Source of the DNA: Candidatus Aenigmatarchaeota archaeon
Lineage (GTDB): Archaea > Aenigmatarchaeota > Aenigmatarchaeia > QMZP01 > QMZT01
Direction: 5' to 3'
Length of the DNA: 64,000 bases
Assembly: GCA_963726265.1 (NCBI GenBank)
Contig: CAVSBQ010000002.1
Span: 128,001-192,000 of the forward strand
The stretch's first letter is position 1. Every line of letters starts with the position of its first letter. Positions 1 to 6,000 of the stretch are shown here, piece by piece. Position numbers: made by a program.

Positions 1-3000
1 GAACCGAGCGCCTGAAGCAATTCTTCTACCACAAGCTCGTCTACGGCAAGGAGAACCAGGGCAAGCATCACTGCGTCGGCTGCGGCCGGTGCATAAAGGA
101 ATGCATGACGCGCATAGACATAACCGAGGAAATCGGAAATGTAAGGAAGGAATATGAAAGGTTCTGAAAGGAACGAGTATCTGCCGAGGCCGGCCGAAAT
201 AACAGGCGTCGAAGACGAAGCATGCGACACGAAAACCTTCAGGCTCAAGTTTAAGACAGGCGGAGCGCTTGACTTCTCGCCGGGCCAGTTCGTGCAGGTC
301 TCGGTTTTCGGCGCGGGCGAGATACCCCTGTCCATTTCCTCGTCGCCGTTCGAGAAAGGCTATTTCGAGATAAGCGTGCGCAGGTTCGGAGCTGTGACCG
401 AGGCGCTGTTCGGCCTGAAGAAAGGCGGCATCGTCGGCATCCGCGGCCCGTACGGCAAAGGCTATCCTGTCGAGAAGTTCATCGGCAAGGACATAGTCAT
501 CGCCGCCGGAGGCGTGGGCATCGCCGCCGTCAGCGCGGTCATAGAGCACATCATGCACAACAGAAAGGACTACGGCAAGGTGTGGCTGCTTTACGGCGCG
601 CACTGCCCGTCCAACGTGATGTTCAACAAGAGGATGAAGAAATGGTGCGCCAACGGCATAGAGGCGATGGTGACTGTTACGGACGTGAAAGGCGAAAAAT
701 GGAAAGGCGAAATCGGCTACGTGGAGCCGCTGCTGGAAAAACTCGGCGTGAGGGCGCACATCAGCATCTGCTGCGGCCCGCCAGGCATGATGAGGGACCT
801 ATACAACGAGTTCAAGAGGATTGGCATGGCCGACGAGAGCATGTATTTCTCGCTAGAGCGCATGATGCAGTGCGGCATAGGCAAGTGCGGCCACTGCAAC
901 ATAGGCAAGATATACGTATGCACCGACGGCCCTGTTTTCACCTACGCGCAACTGAAGGGCGTTACGGAGAACATCTGGGGATGACATGACAAAGAAAAGC
1001 GTGAAAAAAAGGAAGCCTAAGAAAGCCGTGAAGGCTTTGAAAAAAGGCAGGGTTGTTAAGAAGAGCAGAGTTGTTGAAAGGCACGCAGCTGTCAAAAAGG
1101 TTGTAACTGTGAAAAAGGCTGCGCCAGTCAAAACTCCTGTCAAACACCCGCTCAAGCACGCGGCCAAACCCGCGGCGGGCGGCAAAAAGAAAGTCGCTTT
1201 CATAGGCATGACCTCGTGCAAGGGGTGCTTCTTCCAGTTCCTGCTGCTCGGCAGGCGGCTGGCGGACGTTTTCGAAAACGTGAACATAACGAACTTCTGG
1301 ATGCTCAAGGAATTCAACGACAAGGAAGGCGAATACGATGTCGTCTTCATGGACGGCGCGGTTTCGACCGAGCGCGAGCTGGAAGAGCTGAAAAAGGCGA
1401 GGGAGAAGGCACGCTTCCTCATTGCCTACGGGACGTGCGCATGCTGGGGAGGCATTCCCTCCATAAGGAATTATGCTTCCAAGGACTACAGGAAAATCGT
1501 CTACCCGACCGAAACGAAGCACAAGTCGAGGAGCGAGGTAACGCCCGTCGACAGGCACGCCAGGGTCGACTATTACATGCGCGGCTGCCCGGTGAACGAG
1601 GACGAGGTCTTCGCGCTCATCGCCGACCTGCTCAACAATAAACGGCCTCGTGAGAAGGATTATTGCGTGTGCGTGGAATGCAAGAAGCGCGGCATCAAAT
1701 GCCTGTTCAAGGACGGCGTCACGTGCTACGGGCCGGTCACATACGCCGGCTGCAACGCTCCCTGCCCGGCCGCCAGGACGCCGTGCGACGGCTGCCGCGG
1801 CCCGCTGCCCGACGGCAACCTCGGGGCGGAGATCGAACTGCTGAAGGAGAAAGGGGTGACCATGGACGACATCAGGATGGTTTTCACTAGGTATGCCGGC
1901 TCGGCTGAAAAGTTCAGGGAAACCGGAAACGGCCAGGCGGAGCAGGGCAATGCAGAAGGCAAAGCGGAGGAATGATAATGAGCCATAAGGGTTTCACGCT
2001 CGAAGAGCTGACGAAACTGGAAGGCCATGCGAAGCTCAACGTGGATATGAAAGGCGGGAAGGTAAATAAGGTCTGGCTCGAGGTCTACGAGGCTTCGAGG
2101 TATTTCGAGGCCATGCTGCTCGGACGCGATTACAGGGAGGCGCCCAGCATAACGCAGAGGATATGCGGCATATGCTCGGTCGTCCACACGCTCACGTCGA
2201 TAAAGGCCGTGGAGGACGCGTTCGGCATAACGCCGTCGCAGCAGACGCTCGACCTGCGCAAGCTTCTCCTTTACGCGAGCACCATCCACAGCCACACCGC
2301 GCACCTGTTCTTCTTCGCGCTGCCCGATTATCTCGGCTTCAGCGACGTGATAGAGCTCTCGCAGAAGAAGCATGAGCACATCCACCTCGCGCTCGACCTG
2401 CAGCAATTGGCGAGCGACATCGTGAAACTCGTGGGCGGCCGCGCCCTCCACCCCGTCACCCCGGTCATAGGCGGCTTCACTTCCGTGCCGGACAAGGCGA
2501 AAATCGGGGCCATAAGGAAAAACCTGGAGGCGATGAAGAAGCTCGCGAAAAAGACCGCTGAAATCTTTGCGCCGCTGAAGCTGCCCGCGCTGGATATAAA
2601 GGCTCCGCAGCTCTGCCTGAAAAAAGCGAACGAATATGCGCTTTACGACGGCACCATAACCAGCAGCGACGGCTCGTTCTTCAGAGGCGGCGACTACAAG
2701 AAGCACATAAAGGAAACCATCAGGCCGTATTCGAATTCCAAGCATTCCAGCTTCCAGGGCGGCAGTTACATGACCGGCGCTTTGCCGCGCCTCAACAGCA
2801 ACTGGAGATACCTTTCCGACGACGCTGGATCAATCCTTGCCGCCGCCGGGAAGGCAGGCATGAAGCCTCCTATTTACAACCCCTTTGCCAACAACTTCGC
2901 GCAGGCGGTCGAGATGGTCCATTTCACGGACGAGGCGCTGCATCTTACTGAGAAATACGCGAAAGGCATGCGCGGCGAGAAATTCGAGGCGCTGCCGAAA

Positions 3001-6000
3001 AAGACGGACAGCGAAGGCGTGGGCGTCTGCGAAGCGCCGAGAGGCCTGCTGCTCCACAACTACGGCATAGGCAGCGACGGCAAGATAAGATACGCGAACG
3101 TCATCACACCGACCTCGCAGAACGCCGCGAGGATGGAAGACGACATAGCGGCATTCCTGCCGTCAATCCTGAAAAAGCCGGGAGCTGAGGTGAAGCTCCT
3201 CCTGGAGATGCTGATAAGGGCGTATGACCCGTGCTTCTCCTGCTCGAGCCATTTCCTCGAGCTGAAAATAAAGACCTGACGCTCTATAGCCAGAAATCCC
3301 GGGCAAATCACAGGGAGGCGAGCAGTTTCCCTGCCTCCCTCGCAGCCTCTGTTTTCTCCGAGCCGAAGGGCACGCCGATGATCCTGAACCTGCGCTTTTC
3401 GGCGGCCTCGAGAATCTTCAGCATCGAGCATAGGTCGAGGTCATGCGCCGTGACGCTCCTTGTCCTTGCGAACGCGTCCGCGCCGTCGAAGAGCCTGGCC
3501 TTCTTCAGGCCCTTCACGACGTCGATTATGACTATCTCCCCGGATTTTTCCATGTGGCTGCGGATATCGAACGGGTTGTCGCATTTCAGGATATCGAAAT
3601 TACCTGCTCTGCCGCCAAGCTCGCTGCATATTTCCAGCGCGAGCTTATCGCCTTCGCTTTCGCTTCCGAAGCACAGGGCCAGCTTTTTCATCATCCACCT
3701 TCCTGCCTTTCCTTGCGATTCTCCTGCCTATCCTCTTCTTTATCTCATGACCCTTCCAGACGAAGTAGAAGCCCAGCAGCACGATGACGATGTAGGTCGC
3801 AAGTATGCTGGGCGACGGCGGTATGCTGAACAACGGCGTATAGAACAAGAGCAAAAGGTATGTTATGATTATCACCCCTGCCAGCCATGCCACAAACGGC
3901 AGGAGCACCTTCGAATCAACGGTTTTGTCGGCCATAACAATACGTTGGCTTATTGCCTAATCAATATCGATCTGTGCCCTCTGGAGGCGGCCCGAATAGT
4001 CGATGAACACGGTCTTGATTTCAGTGAACTCCTTTATCGCCTCTGTCCCGGCTTCGCGGCCTCCGTTGCCAGTGCCTTTCACCCCGCCGAAGGGCAGATG
4101 CACTTCGGCGCCGATGGTCGGCGCGTTTATGTAGACTATCCCCGATTCGGCGAGCCTCATTGCCTTCATGGCCTTGTTTATGTTTTTCGTGTAAATGGAC
4201 CATGAAAGGCCGTAATTTACCGAGTTCGCAATTCTTATCGCGTCATCGAAATTCCTCGCCTCGATTATGGCAAGCACCGGGCCGAATATCTCCTCGCGGG
4301 CGATGGTCATGTCCTGCGTAACGTGAGCGAAGACGGTCGGGGCGATGAAGAAGCCTTTTTTATGTTCGCTTCCGTTCAGCCTGTGGCCGCCGCAGAGGAG
4401 CTTCGCTCCCTCTTTCTTTCCCCTGTCGATGTAGCCCAGGATTTTCGTCATCTGCCTCGCGTTTATTATCGGCCCGACCTGCGCTCCTTTCAATCCGCTG
4501 CCGACCTTCAGCTTCGCGGTTCTTTTCAGCAGCCTCTCGGTGAATTTTTTCGCGACCGGCTTTTCGAGAATTATCCTGGACGTCGCCGTGCATCTCTGGC
4601 CGGCGGTCCCGAACGCGCCCCAGAGCGCGCCGTCTACCGCGAGGTCGATGTCCGCGTCGGCAAGGACGATCTGCGGGTTCTTGCCGCCCATCTCCAGCTC
4701 TACGGAGTTCAGCTTCTTCGCCCCCTCGACGTAAAGGCGAGTTCCCACGTCCGTCGAGCCTGTGAAGGAAAGGTGATTTATGCCCTTGTGCTTCGCTATC
4801 GCGTCGCCTGCCGCCTCGCCGGAGCCAGTAACCATGTTCAGCACGCCCGCAGGGACGCCTGCCTCTTCCAGGATTTTCACGAGCTCAATCCCGCACGCTG
4901 GCGCGTCGCTGGACGGCTTGAAGACGATGGTGTTCCCGCACACGAGAGCGGCAGGGATTTTCCAAGCAGGTATCGCGATGGGAAAATTCCACGGCGTTAT
5001 CAGGCCGACGACGCCCTTCGGCTCGCGTATGAACATCGCGAACTTGTCCTGAAGTTCGGAGGTCGTCGTCTCGCCGAGAAGGCGACGCCCTTCGGCTGCG
5101 ACGTACTTGGTTATGTCAATAGCCTCCTGCACTTCCCCCCGCGCCTCCTCAAGGCTCTTGCCGTTCTCCTTCGTGAGCAGAACGGCAAGCGTTCCTTTCC
5201 GCTGCTCCATGAGATGCGCGGCCCTGAAAAGGATTTCGCCCTTCTTCGGCGCCGGGAAAAACTTCCATTTTTCGAACGCGGCGCGCGCGACCTGCGCGGC
5301 CAGCTCCACGTCTTTCTCGTTCCCGGCCTGGCATATGAAAAGCGCCTCGCCGTTAGCCGGATTTATTTTTTTGAAAGTTTTCCCTGAAGATGATTTAACC
5401 CATTTCCCGTTTATGTAATTAAGATAAATTTTGACCATTCGCACCACCTCACACCATTCGCCGCATAGCCTGCAAAAACTATACCTGCAAATAGTTTGGT
5501 TTGGTAAATAAAAAAGGAAAGGTCCGGAAATTTTCCGGCACCTGTTTTCCGCTTGAAATGATTGAGGTGGATCAGTACATCTGTATGCCGAGGTCCCTGG
5601 AGAACATCTTGTCCACTTTCTTCGTCTCCTCGGTCTTGCTGCCCAGTATGTAAGGCGAGCTGACGCCGGTTATGATGGTTATGACCTGAAGCTTTCCTTT
5701 GTATTCCGGCAGGACGCGCGCTCCCCACATGACCGTCGCGTCGGGATTCATCTTCTTCGAAACGGTTTCTCCTATCAGGCTCACTTCATCGAGCGTGAGG
5801 TCCTCGCCTCCGATTATCTGTATCAGGGCGCCGGTCGCTCCTTCGTAGTCGACATCGAGCAGCGGGTGGTTGAGGGCTATGTCTATCGCTTCCTTCGCCC
5901 TGTTCTTCGTGTCCGATATGCCGACGCCGATGGTCGCGACTCCGCCGGAATGCATGATCGCCTTCACATCGGCGTAGTCCAGGTTGACAAGCGACGGCTG

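What a model noticed while it worked through the whole genome (the two positions that open the first line are those of the whole stretch)
1..3279. Two intact [NiFe]-hydrogenases but no HypD, HypE or HypF maturases
The genome encodes a four-subunit sulfhydrogenase-type enzyme (g00165-g00168, 127166-131279). It also encodes a membrane-bound Mbh/Mrp-type enzyme (g00787-g00794 at 718038-721937 and g01125-g01127 at 1045314-1047768). Both large subunits have complete Ni-Fe cysteine motifs, and HypC (g00862) and the endopeptidase HycI (g01124) are present. The enzymes that build the Fe(CN)2CO centre (HypD, HypE, HypF) are missing, here and in all four other species of the genus. The cofactor must be made by an unknown route or obtained from a host.
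Evidence so far: The motifs are RICGICSVVH / DPCFSCSSH in g00168 and RVCGICGHYH / DPCLSCTDR in g01127. Six-frame family searches gave HypD (PF01924) in 0 of 5 genomes of the genus and 3 of 23 of the family. hypF (TIGR00143) and hypE (TIGR02124) gave no match over the cut-off in 5 of 5; the hits lie on acylphosphatase, TsaD, ThiL and PurM genes. The control genomes ring. In relatives.tsv, NiFeSe_Hases is in 20 of 22 other family genomes, HycI in 17 and HypC in 16. The finding spans contig positions 127166 to 131279; this window holds only 128001 to 131279 of it.
(Added by a program. Inside this text positions count along the whole contig: contig position 128,001 is position 1 of the stretch shown here. 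"Call 12" and the like, gene names such as g00115 and contig names such as C1 are that model's own, and its searches are not shown. The text may have been shortened before it was handed on; [...] marks where a part breaks off. The agent that wrote the report below was given it as the finding of a first reader that could run no searches.)

Follow-up and report, generated by a model that had tools for sequence, protein, structure and literature searches.

The report
Nickel-iron hydrogenases without cofactor-building genes
A tiny symbiotic-type archaeon, like most of its relatives, keeps two intact nickel-iron hydrogenases but lacks the enzymes thought necessary to build their metal centre, and keeps instead a small, undescribed helper gene cluster beside them.

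Summary
The window carries gamma, delta and alpha of a four-subunit 3b-type [NiFe]-hydrogenase, with a diverged endopeptidase gene next to it. An Mbh-type enzyme, HycI and a short HypC lie elsewhere on the same 1.1-Mb contig. Six-frame searches find no HypD, HypE, HypF, HypA or HypB. In the family (23 genomes), HypD, HypE and HypF occur together in the same 3 genomes and in no others, while 22 carry a large subunit. In the order, 72 of 91 genomes have a large subunit and 5 have HypD. Cysteine motifs are intact, and the 3b large subunit is under purifying selection (dN/dS 0.058) in two species that lack even HypC. New here: hypC is followed by a 174-aa gene ("X") with an unknown helical domain plus a HypC fold. 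X carries four nearly invariant Cys/His residues. X is usually followed by an EamA transporter and often lies beside hydrogenase genes in several DPANN lineages, never beside hypD/E/F. A HypC-X complex is predicted (0.64, best control 0.00). How the Fe(CN)2CO centre is obtained remains open. I favour outside supply, with HypC-X as acceptor. I found no paper describing this.

The parts
1..167 (+). 3' end of the beta subunit gene of the 3b-type hydrogenase. The whole gene is contig C2:127091-128167, 358 aa.
   Evidence: The ORF was found. Pfam gives Fer4_22 at 82.4 bits. NCBIfam gives sulfhyd_ShyB at 192.4 bits over positions 6-332 of 334.
154..984 (+). Gamma subunit, 276 aa, with FAD/NAD(P)-binding and [2Fe-2S] domains.
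   Evidence: Pfam finds FAD_binding_6, NAD_binding_1 and DHODB_Fe-S_bind. NCBIfam gives 218.7 bits to the hydrogenase gamma subunit family and 184.4 bits to HydG of sulfhydrogenase 1.
986..1975 (+). Delta (small) subunit, 329 aa as read from the ATG at 986. The first ~68 residues are lysine-rich and lie outside the family match.
   Evidence: Pfam gives Oxidored_q6 at 88.5 bits over residues 78-214. NCBIfam gives sulfhyd_ShyD at 183.4 bits over residues 69-303.
1972..3279 (+). Alpha (large, catalytic) subunit, 435 aa. It carries RICGICSVVH and DPCFSCSSH, followed by an 8-residue tail, FLELKIKT.
   Evidence: The sequence is. Pfam gives NiFeSe_Hases at 127 bits. NCBIfam gives sulfhyd_HydA at 291.6 bits, near full length.
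3308..3694 (-). 128-aa gene, convergent with alpha. It is probably the 3b-specific maturation endopeptidase, strongly diverged.
   Evidence: Pfam gives HycI at 19.4 bits, below the cut-off of 23. The gene is conserved directly beside the 3b alpha gene in G018, G019, G020, G015, G014 and G006 at 43-59% identity. D16, D58 and H84 are invariant in 7 of 7 sequences. A profile search of solved structures gave no hit. No structure was predicted.

Best explanation
Shown: this DPANN (Aenigmatarchaeota-type) archaeon has lost the canonical machinery that builds and inserts the NiFe(CN)2CO centre, namely HypD, HypE, HypF, HypA and HypB. Most of its order has lost HypD as well. It keeps two structurally complete [NiFe]-hydrogenases, two maturation endopeptidases, a short HypC, and a conserved hypC-X-eamA cluster.

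Inferred, step 1: the hydrogenases are still working enzymes.

Inferred, step 2: HypC and X form a small two-protein iron site that stands where the HypC-HypD scaffold stands in other organisms. The site would use Cys2 of HypC with Cys23, His91, Cys110 and His153 of X.

Inferred, step 3 (the weakest): the ligand-bearing iron unit or its precursors are not made by the cell. They would come from a host or neighbour, with the EamA-type transporter that travels with X as the likely import route. Nickel insertion and C-terminal cleavage would then finish maturation inside the cell.
For: The loss is real.
- HypD/E/F are all-or-none. The same 3 of 23 family genomes have all three and the other 20 have none, while 22 of 23 have a large subunit.
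- In the order, HypD is in 5 of 91 genomes and a large subunit in 72 of 91.
- G000 is a 1.105-Mb contig plus three small ones.
- The control genomes ring in every search.
- The weak own-genome hits are ThiL, PurM, acylphosphatase, TsaD, MCM and aRF1.

The enzymes are kept.
- In 23 distinct family large-subunit frames, the C-terminal motif with its tail is present in 22. The N-terminal motif is present in all but a cut fragment, with K for R in three.
- The 3b alpha gene has dN/dS 0.058 between G018 and G020, which have no HypC or X.
- HypA and HypB are kept in G008 and G009, which lack HypD/E/F.

X is tied to maturation.
- X abuts hypC in 16 of 23 family genomes.
- X is found in 53 of 91 genomes of the order.
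- Its C-terminal domain matches T. kodakarensis HypC at Z 9.9, rmsd 2.1 A over 65 residues, with Cys110 on HypC Cys2.
- Across 50 homologues, Cys23, His91, Cys110 and His153 are each kept in 49 of 50.
- In those 50 loci, EamA follows X directly in 35. HypC precedes it in 31. A large subunit lies within 8 kb in 23. HypD/E/F lie there in 0.
- In G070 the order is Mbh operon, HycI, HypC, X-like, HypA, EamA.
- In L186, X is fused to the endopeptidase.

HypC-X complex: score 0.64 against a best control of 0.00. That mark was reached by 116 of 157 solved complexes and 2 of 215 mismatched pairs, and these counts hold only roughly because my own alignments were used. The runs share at least 89% of contacts and the partner pLDDT is at least 86. 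HypC residues 1-5 and X residues 23, 90-91 and 110 are in the interface.

Outside supply: no candidate enzyme for CN or CO synthesis was found. There is no HypE or HypF, and none of 10 radical-SAM candidates is HydG- or HydE-like. G018 and G020 lack OTC, HypC, X and EamA together, yet keep a constrained large subunit.
Against: - There is no direct evidence of activity, expression or cofactor content. No host is known.
- No import of an Fe(CN)2CO unit or of cyanide or CO donors has been described for any organism (my recall).
- The EamA protein matches only a generic carboxylate/amino-acid/amine transporter model, below its cut-off. It could be an exporter, or be linked for another reason.
- X is not universal. 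21 of the 67 order genomes with a large subunit and no HypD show no X at E <= 1e-5.
- X is not strictly an alternative to HypD. G070 has HypD and an X-like gene.
- The Cys of X that matches HypC Cys2 is internal, whereas in HypC it is N-terminal.
- Ornithine carbamoyltransferase, which acts on carbamoyl phosphate, sits directly before hypC in six genera of the family. This would fit cyanide synthesis inside the cell as well as or better than import.
- The complex prediction is a model score, and the HypC domain is known from solved HypC-HypD complexes.
Confidence: 0.4

Rival explanations
1. Endogenous new route. The cell itself makes the Fe(CN)2CO unit by chemistry not yet described. HypC-X would be the scaffold. 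Carbamoyl phosphate from ornithine carbamoyltransferase running backwards on citrulline would be the cyanide source. Unidentified proteins would do the work of HypE and HypF.
For: - The gene order OTC-HypC-X-EamA is kept in genera g1, g2, g3, g4, g7 and g9, and OTC is present in 12 of 50 wider loci.
- In genus g6 an acylphosphatase gene, the fold of the carbamoyl-phosphate-binding end of HypF, lies upstream of hypC-X instead.
- G000 has no carbamate kinase and no carbamoyl-phosphate synthase large subunit. OTC is therefore the only visible source of carbamoyl phosphate.
- G018 and G020 lack OTC, HypC, X and EamA together.
- Four radical-SAM/SPASM proteins of G000 have no assigned function.
- Archaea with active [FeFe]-hydrogenases mostly lack HydE/F/G, and the authors propose an alternative pathway (PMC11216029, passages read).
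Against: - No enzyme candidate for carbamoyl transfer to a thiol or for its dehydration was found. The HypE-like hits are ThiL and PurM, and TsaD is the universal tRNA enzyme.
- OTC may simply feed the aspartate carbamoyltransferase-like gene at C2:496085-497002.
- The OTC linkage is confined to one family plus a few loci and may be inherited gene order.
- G018 and G020 keep a constrained large subunit without the module.
Confidence: 0.25
2. The hydrogenase-like complexes no longer carry a canonical NiFe(CN)2CO centre. They would work with another metal site, or as redox or ion-pumping modules without H2 chemistry, so no Hyp machinery is needed.
For: - Relatives of group 4 hydrogenases, such as complex I, work without the NiFe site (established knowledge).
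- Five of six Hyp proteins are missing here.
- Two species of the genus lack all six.
Against: - All four metal-binding cysteines, the EAPRG arginine region and the cleavable C-terminal tails are kept.
- Both enzymes keep dedicated endopeptidases, whose only known role follows nickel insertion.
- HypC is kept in 20 of 23 family genomes.
- HypA is kept in 9 of 23 family genomes and HypB in 3 of 23, among them genomes without HypD/E/F.
- Lineages that gave up the NiFe site lost these cysteines (established knowledge).
Confidence: 0.12
3. Artefact. HypD/E/F exist but were missed, because of unassembled regions, binning loss or extreme divergence.
For: - G000 is rated 88% complete and all genomes compared are metagenome bins.
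Against: - The searches are six-frame and read through stops.
- HypD/E/F are found at 306-826 bits in 3 family genomes, on contigs whose other genes are 40-71% identical to G000 genes.
- The absence recurs in 86 of 91 order genomes, among them several with 1 to 10 contigs, and in 14 of 14 X-bearing genomes of other DPANN labels.
- The three genes are present or absent together.
Confidence: 0.03

Closest known systems
Canonical HypABCDEF maturation of [NiFe]-hydrogenases (E. coli, Thermococcus kodakarensis)
   Same: A HypC with N-terminal Cys2, endopeptidases of the HycI/HybD type, and large subunits with CxxC pairs and a cleavable tail are all present.
   Different: HypD, HypE, HypF, HypA and HypB are not found. 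[quoted passage not shown] The HypC here is short, 52-54 aa. It carries Phe where HypD-linked HypCs of the same family carry His in the VHxGFA stretch.
Archaeal and protist [FeFe]-hydrogenases without HydE/F/G maturases
   Same: A complex organometallic hydrogenase is kept while its dedicated maturases are missing from most genomes, including genome-reduced DPANN (PMC11216029, passages read).
   Different: That is a different enzyme superfamily, cofactor and set of maturases. That paper calls [NiFe] maturation the more complex pathway, and the passages I read do not report [NiFe]-hydrogenases without Hyp genes.
HypC paralogues with added roles (HybG, HupF, HoxL)
   Same: X has a HypC-type OB fold. 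It keeps the Cys and the His that HypC uses, and it sits in maturation gene clusters.
   Different: X has a ~105-residue N-terminal helical domain with no recognised fold (best Z 5.7), so the HypC-type Cys is internal. It is paired with a second, short HypC and with an EamA transporter. The known paralogues work downstream of HypCD (review passages).
Pyrococcus furiosus sulfhydrogenases I and II (group 3b) and Mbh (group 4)
   Same: The four-subunit alpha-beta-gamma-delta layout and the Mbh core subunits with Mrp-type subunits are the same.
   Different: Scores are far below the equivalog cut-offs. The Mbh genes are split over two loci about 325 kb apart. The P. furiosus organisms have full hyp sets (my recall).

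Membership tests
Group 3b (sulfhydrogenase-type) [NiFe]-hydrogenase | Four subunits: alpha (NiFe), delta (small, Fe-S), beta (Fe-S) and gamma (FAD/NAD(P)) | tested here: met
   All four genes are contiguous, and their best NCBIfam matches are sulfhydrogenase subunits. All four score below the equivalog cut-offs.
Group 3b (sulfhydrogenase-type) [NiFe]-hydrogenase | Two CxxC pairs that bind Ni and Fe (the RxCGxCxxxH and DPCxxCxxH motifs) | tested here: met
   Alpha reads RICGICSVVH and DPCFSCSSH. The motif wording is from my recall.
Group 3b (sulfhydrogenase-type) [NiFe]-hydrogenase | H2 evolution or uptake activity with NAD(P) | not testable with these tools
   No culture, enzyme or RNA data exist. 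No RNA run holder was listed.
Group 4 membrane-bound (Mbh-type) hydrogenase | Large subunit with NiFe cysteines, plus NuoB-, NuoC-, NuoH- and NuoI-like subunits and Mrp antiporter-like subunits | tested here: met
   The large subunit matches Complex1_49kDa plus NiFeSe_Hases and reads RVCGICGHYH and DPCLSCTDR. The partners match Oxidored_q6, Complex1_30kDa, NADHdh, Fer4, Proton_antipo_M and MbhD.
Canonical Hyp maturation system | HypD scaffold | tested here: not met
   The best hit is 10.8 bits against a cut-off of 25. HypD is in 0 of 5 genomes of the genus, 3 of 23 of the family and 5 of 91 of the order.
Canonical Hyp maturation system | HypE and HypF (cyanide synthesis from carbamoyl phosphate) | tested here: not met
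   The best hits are 61 and 34.8 bits against cut-offs of 251.6 and 466.1. They fall on ThiL, PurM, acylphosphatase and TsaD. Each is over cut-off in 3 of 23 family genomes.
Canonical Hyp maturation system | HypA and HypB (nickel insertion) | tested here: not met
   The best HypA hit is 24.1 bits, on aRF1. The best HypB hit is 16.6 bits. In the family, HypA is in 9 of 23 genomes and HypB in 3 of 23. In the genus both are in 0 of 5. An Mrp/MinD-type substitute for HypB was not searched.
Canonical Hyp maturation system | HypC chaperone with N-terminal Cys | tested here: met
   The 54-aa protein begins MCFALTGKV and scores 52.4 bits in Pfam. It scores 40 bits in TIGR00074, below that model's cut-off of 48.
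HypC/HupF family (for the C-terminal domain of X) | OB fold of HypC with the conserved Cys at its start and the conserved His | tested here: met
   The domain matches 2z1c at Z 9.9, rmsd 2.1 A over 65 residues, with X 110-174 aligned on HypC 2-66. Cys110 and His153 are each kept in 49 of 50 homologues. Pfam HupF_HypC scores only 21.3 bits for this copy, and 26 of 35 homologues match at E <= 0.01.
HypC/HupF family (for the C-terminal domain of X) | The Cys is the N-terminal residue after removal of Met | tested here: not met
   The Cys is residue 110 of 174. Whether X is processed is unknown.
Hydrogenase maturation endopeptidase (HycI/HybD) for the 128-aa gene at 3308-3694 | Family profile match and the acidic-acidic-His metal-binding triad | tested here: inconclusive
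   Pfam HycI scores 19.4 bits, below the cut-off of 23. NCBIfam gives no match. A profile search of solved structures gave no endopeptidase. D16, D58 and H84 are invariant in 7 of 7 sequences, and the gene is always beside the 3b alpha gene. The triad is from my recall. No structure was predicted.

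The most novel reading that the evidence does not exclude
DPANN archaea mature [NiFe]-hydrogenases by a minimal pathway unknown to biochemistry. A two-protein HypC-X scaffold would replace HypC-HypD, with iron held by Cys2 of HypC and by Cys23, His91, Cys110 and His153 of X. 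It would be charged with cyanide and CO ligands from a small molecule moved by the co-inherited EamA transporter, or from citrulline-derived carbamoyl phosphate. HypD, HypE and HypF would then be dispensable.
Probability: 0.25. Interest if true: 0.95.

Novelty: new variant of a known kind. Interest (0 to 1): 0.8.

Why it matters
The six Hyp proteins are treated as necessary for every [NiFe]-hydrogenase. A whole order of archaea, and X-bearing members of other DPANN lineages, keep constrained and motif-complete hydrogenases without HypD; HypE and HypF were checked only in this family (20 of 23 lack them). Either the metal centre or its parts can pass between cells, or a second route to Fe(CN)2CO exists.

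Both possibilities bear on two open matters: where the CO ligand comes from, and how simply the cofactor can be assembled for biotechnology.

The hypC-X-eamA cluster gives a concrete three-gene handle for testing this. It can be expressed in hyp-deleted strains and examined by infrared spectroscopy.

The result also cautions against scoring H2 metabolism in DPANN genomes from structural genes alone.

Tried and rejected
- HypE-like and HypF-like hits as diverged maturases: rejected. They are ThiL, PurM, acylphosphatase, TsaD and MCM, and the HypA-like hit is aRF1.
- Contamination as the source of HypD/E/F in the few positive relatives: rejected. Neighbouring genes are 40-71% identical to G000 genes.
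- X as a strict replacement of HypD: rejected. G070 has both, and 21 genomes with a large subunit have neither.
- A radical-SAM HydG/HydE-type route, a lead from earlier notes e1-864232 and e1-1082156: none of 10 candidates was HydG- or HydE-like. The candidates were ORFs of at least 200 aa from a crude gene set of 1243 ORFs. Of 18 ORFs that carry CxxxCxxC, I chose by eye the 10 with the motif at a plausible position. A gene outside this filter would be missed.
- Arginine-deiminase role for OTC: no carbamate kinase was found.
- Fold of the X N-terminal domain: best Z 5.7 (MCM lid region, rmsd 3.6 A, 64 residues aligned), which is within background for helical models. Foldseek on the whole model matched only the HypC part and OB folds.
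- The endopeptidase-like gene against solved structures by profile: no relevant hit.
- Circularity of contig C2: no terminal overlap of 20-100 bases.
- Earlier notes of this scan, by sequence of X and by words: nothing on this module.
- Literature: seven searches found no paper on [NiFe]-hydrogenases without Hyp genes in DPANN, on DUF6390 or on X. Supplementary tables of the genome surveys were not read and may list hyp genes.
- EamA substrate: only generic transporter models matched, below cut-off.

Full report
**What is in the window.** Positions 1-3279 hold the end of a beta subunit gene (the whole gene is contig C2:127091-128167), then gamma (154-984), delta (986-1975) and alpha (1972-3279) of a four-subunit [NiFe]-hydrogenase. 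Pfam and NCBIfam place all four with the sulfhydrogenase (group 3b) subunits. The matches are near full length but well below the equivalog cut-offs. Alpha carries RICGICSVVH and DPCFSCSSH, followed by eight residues.

A 128-aa gene lies convergent with alpha at 3308-3694. It matches the HycI protease family weakly, at 19.4 bits against a cut-off of 23. It is conserved directly beside the 3b alpha gene in six relatives at 43-59% identity, and it keeps an invariant Asp, Asp and His. I read it as the 3b-specific endopeptidase, but this is not proven: a profile search of solved structures gave nothing.

**The rest of the genome.** G000 is 1,132,268 bases in four contigs, and C2 alone is 1,105,251 bases.
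- The Mbh-type enzyme is split into two loci. Subunits K, J, H and D with small Mrp-type subunits lie at C2:718038-721937, and N, M and L at C2:1045314-1047768. Its large subunit reads RVCGICGHYH and DPCLSCTDR, followed by a 30-residue tail that ends GGGHHGH.
- HycI lies next to the second locus (66.8 bits).
- HypC is a 54-aa protein that begins MCFALTGKV, at C2:824218-824382.

**The absences.** Six-frame family searches of G000 gave nothing over cut-off for any of five Hyp proteins.

| Protein | Best hit (bits) | Cut-off (bits) | What the hit is |
|---|---|---|---|
| HypD | 10.8 | 25 | - |
| HypE | 61 | 251.6 | ThiL (309.6 bits), PurM (376.8 bits) |
| HypF | 34.8 | 466.1 | acylphosphatase, TsaD, MCM zinc finger |
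| HypA | 24.1 | 28.9 | aRF1 |
| HypB | 16.6 | 121.2 | - |

The control genomes rang in each search.

**Is the absence real?** Across the 23 genomes of the family, HypD, HypE and HypF are each over cut-off in the same three genomes (G007, G013, G022), at 306-826 bits. They are absent in the other 20. Meanwhile 22 of 23 have a large subunit and 20 of 23 a HypC.

The hyp-bearing contigs carry ordinary genes that are 40-71% identical to G000 genes, so they are native and not contamination. All five HypE proteins that I extracted end in PRIC.

In the order, 72 of 91 genomes have a large subunit and 5 of 91 have HypD. I searched HypE and HypF only at family level. An all-or-none pattern in three genes, repeated over 45 genera and including bins of 1 to 10 contigs, cannot be explained by incompleteness.

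HypA is over cut-off in 9 of 23 family genomes and HypB in 3 of 23, and neither is found in the genus. G008 and G009 keep HypA, HypB, HypC and X but not HypD/E/F, which argues that maturation is still going on there.

**Are the hydrogenases still used?**
- Among 23 distinct large-subunit frames from the family, 22 show the C-terminal DPCxxC motif with a tail; the other is a fragment. Three 3b enzymes of the genus have K for R before the first CxxC.
- Beside X in other lineages, 20 of the 23 frames flagged by either motif show both motifs. One of the 23 is not a hydrogenase and two are cut by an end.
- Between G018 and G020, the 3b alpha gene has dN 0.033 and dS 0.571, a ratio of 0.058 by the Nei-Gojobori method in my own script. 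These two species of the genus lack HypC and X as well.

The protein is therefore under strong purifying selection, even where no accessory gene other than the proteases is found.

**A new element: the gene after hypC.** A 174-aa gene (C2:824393-824914, here called X) starts eleven bases after hypC.
- It has 97 close homologues. Those that carry a name are labelled Aenigmatarchaeota and are annotated hypothetical or, rarely, 'hydrogenase maturation factor'.
- The predicted structure (pLDDT 89.3) has a helical N-terminal domain and a C-terminal OB fold.
- The OB fold matches T. kodakarensis HypC at Z 9.9, rmsd 2.1 A over 65 residues, and puts Cys110 of X on Cys2 of HypC.
- The N-terminal domain, predicted alone (pLDDT 88.8), found nothing above background (best Z 5.7).
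- Across 50 homologues from public genomes, Cys23, His91, Cys110 and His153 are each kept in 49 of 50.
- The short HypC that travels with X has Phe at the place where HypD-linked HypCs of G013 and G022 have His, while X keeps a His at the matching place. That this His matters in E. coli HypC is from my recall.

**X belongs to hydrogenase maturation.**
- In the family, X is found in 16 of 23 genomes and always abuts hypC. It is not found in the three genomes with HypD/E/F. In G015 the contig ends inside hypC, and in G006 hypC lies about 400 bases from a contig end. Absence of X in those two may therefore be an assembly matter.
- In the order, the X profile matches 53 of 91 genomes. From the tables, counted by hand: 47 genomes have X and a large subunit, 6 have X only, and 25 have a large subunit only. 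Of the 67 genomes with a large subunit and no HypD, 46 have X and 21 do not.
- In 50 loci from public genomes, tblastn with my reference set shows the pattern in the table below. The loci are labelled Aenigmatarchaeota (17), Micrarchaeota (7), Nanoarchaeota-type (3) and Nanohalarchaeota (1), with 22 unlabelled.

| Feature near X | Loci of 50 |
|---|---|
| EamA transporter gene directly after X | 35 |
| HypC just before X | 31 |
| Large subunit within 8 kb | 23 |
| HypA or HypB within 8 kb | 3 |
| HypD, HypE or HypF within 8 kb | 0 |

- In 14 of these genomes outside the order's sample, HypD was found in 0 of 14.
- In G070 the order is Mbh operon, HycI, HypC, X-like, HypA, EamA, Memo-like gene. 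The same pieces are scattered over three loci in G000.
- In L186, X is fused in one 270-aa frame to the 128-aa-type endopeptidase, with hypC upstream and the 3b alpha gene convergent.
- A profile search of 1.84 billion representatives gave 325 proteins at E <= 0.001 and 200 at E <= 1e-10. One distant cluster is labelled Candidatus Gracilibacteria.

**HypC and X together.** The complex prediction supports binding. The score is 0.64 against a best control of 0.00. That mark was reached by 116 of 157 solved complexes and 2 of 215 mismatched pairs, and these counts hold only roughly because my own alignments were used. The runs share at least 89% of contacts and the partner pLDDT is at least 86. 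HypC residues 1-5 and X residues 23, 90-91 and 110 are all in the interface. The conserved Cys and His of both proteins thus meet in one place, as Cys2 of HypC and a Cys of HypD do in the known scaffold (that comparison is my recall). This is a model, not a measurement, and HypC is a family with solved complexes.

**Where could the ligands come from?** I found no enzyme candidate.
- None of 10 radical-SAM candidates is HydG- or HydE-like. The route suggested by earlier notes of this scan for other genomes is therefore not seen here.
- Ornithine carbamoyltransferase sits directly before hypC in genera g1, g2, g3, g4, g7 and g9. In g6 an acylphosphatase gene lies upstream instead.
- G000 has neither carbamate kinase nor carbamoyl-phosphate synthase. 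OTC working backwards on citrulline is thus the only visible source of carbamoyl phosphate, the known precursor of the cyanide ligands.
- The same enzyme would also serve the aspartate carbamoyltransferase-like gene, so the link may be incidental.
- G018 and G020 lack the OTC orthologue, HypC, X and the EamA orthologue together.

**Reading.** Three things are shown. The canonical Fe(CN)2CO machinery is truly absent across a lineage. The hydrogenases and their late maturation steps are kept. A conserved hypC-X-eamA cluster is tied to them. How the centre is obtained is inferred.

I favour outside supply with HypC-X as the acceptor site (0.4), for three reasons. No ligand-making enzyme is visible, a transporter is the most faithful companion of X, and two species keep a constrained enzyme with no accessory genes at all. 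A fully endogenous new route (0.25) is favoured by the carbamoyl-phosphate link. Loss of the canonical centre (0.12) is hard to square with the kept cysteines, tails, proteases and, in some genomes, HypA and HypB. An artefact is very unlikely (0.03).

**What is known.** A 2025 review calls the six Hyp proteins necessary (PMC12134894, abstract and passages). A survey of Aenigmarchaeota lists 3b and group 4 hydrogenases and, in the passages I read, says nothing about hyp genes (PMC8407114). The nearest precedent is the report that most archaea with [FeFe]-hydrogenases lack HydE/F/G (PMC11216029, passages). Seven full-text searches found nothing on [NiFe]-hydrogenases without Hyp genes, on DUF6390 or on X. 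Supplementary tables were not read.

Noticed in passing
window 986-1190 (start of delta); L018:1204-1390 (start of HycI): As read from the first start codon, both the 3b small subunit and HycI begin with lysine-rich stretches of about 60 residues that lie outside the family matches. Whether these are real extensions or wrongly chosen starts was not checked.
   Followed up: no
G000 C2:1046587-1047768 (L091:8587-9768, minus strand): The cleavable C-terminal tail of the Mbh large subunit ends in a His-rich run (GGGHHGH). Relatives in genus g7 end in GGHHHD, GGHHD or GGKDHD. In a genus without HypA or HypB this could be a built-in nickel-binding tail.
   Followed up: partly
L186:8001-8813: In one Aenigmatarchaeota-labelled genome, X and the 128-aa-type endopeptidase are a single 270-aa reading frame, between hypC and the 3b alpha gene.
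   Followed up: yes
L117 (G034:C9) and L118 (G070:C92): HypD and HypE of G034 and G070, which belong to different families of the order, are 72% and 82% identical. Other pairs are 41-59% identical. This suggests transfer of the hyp genes within the order.
   Followed up: partly
window 40612-41526 (C2:168612-169526): This is a 304-aa radical-SAM/SPASM protein with no assigned family (best match 78 bits, far below any cut-off). It lies in a stretch of lower G+C: 0.451 for window 40001-44000, against about 0.53 elsewhere.
   Followed up: partly
G000 C2:717221-718027 and L119:10761-11597: A Memo-like (AmmeMemoRadiSam-type) gene lies beside the Mbh genes in G000. In G070 it lies at the end of the Mbh-HycI-HypC-X-HypA-EamA cluster. 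This is a conserved neighbour of unknown role.
   Followed up: no
P0260 cluster: A distant member of the X family (175 aa) is labelled Candidatus Gracilibacteria, a genome-reduced bacterial lineage. Whether those bacteria also have hydrogenases without HypD was not tested.
   Followed up: no
window 3957-5447 and 5572-6612, minus strand: An aldehyde-dehydrogenase-like gene (496 aa) and an FtsZ-like gene (346 aa) follow the hydrogenase operon. I read this from their sequences and ran no family search.
   Followed up: no
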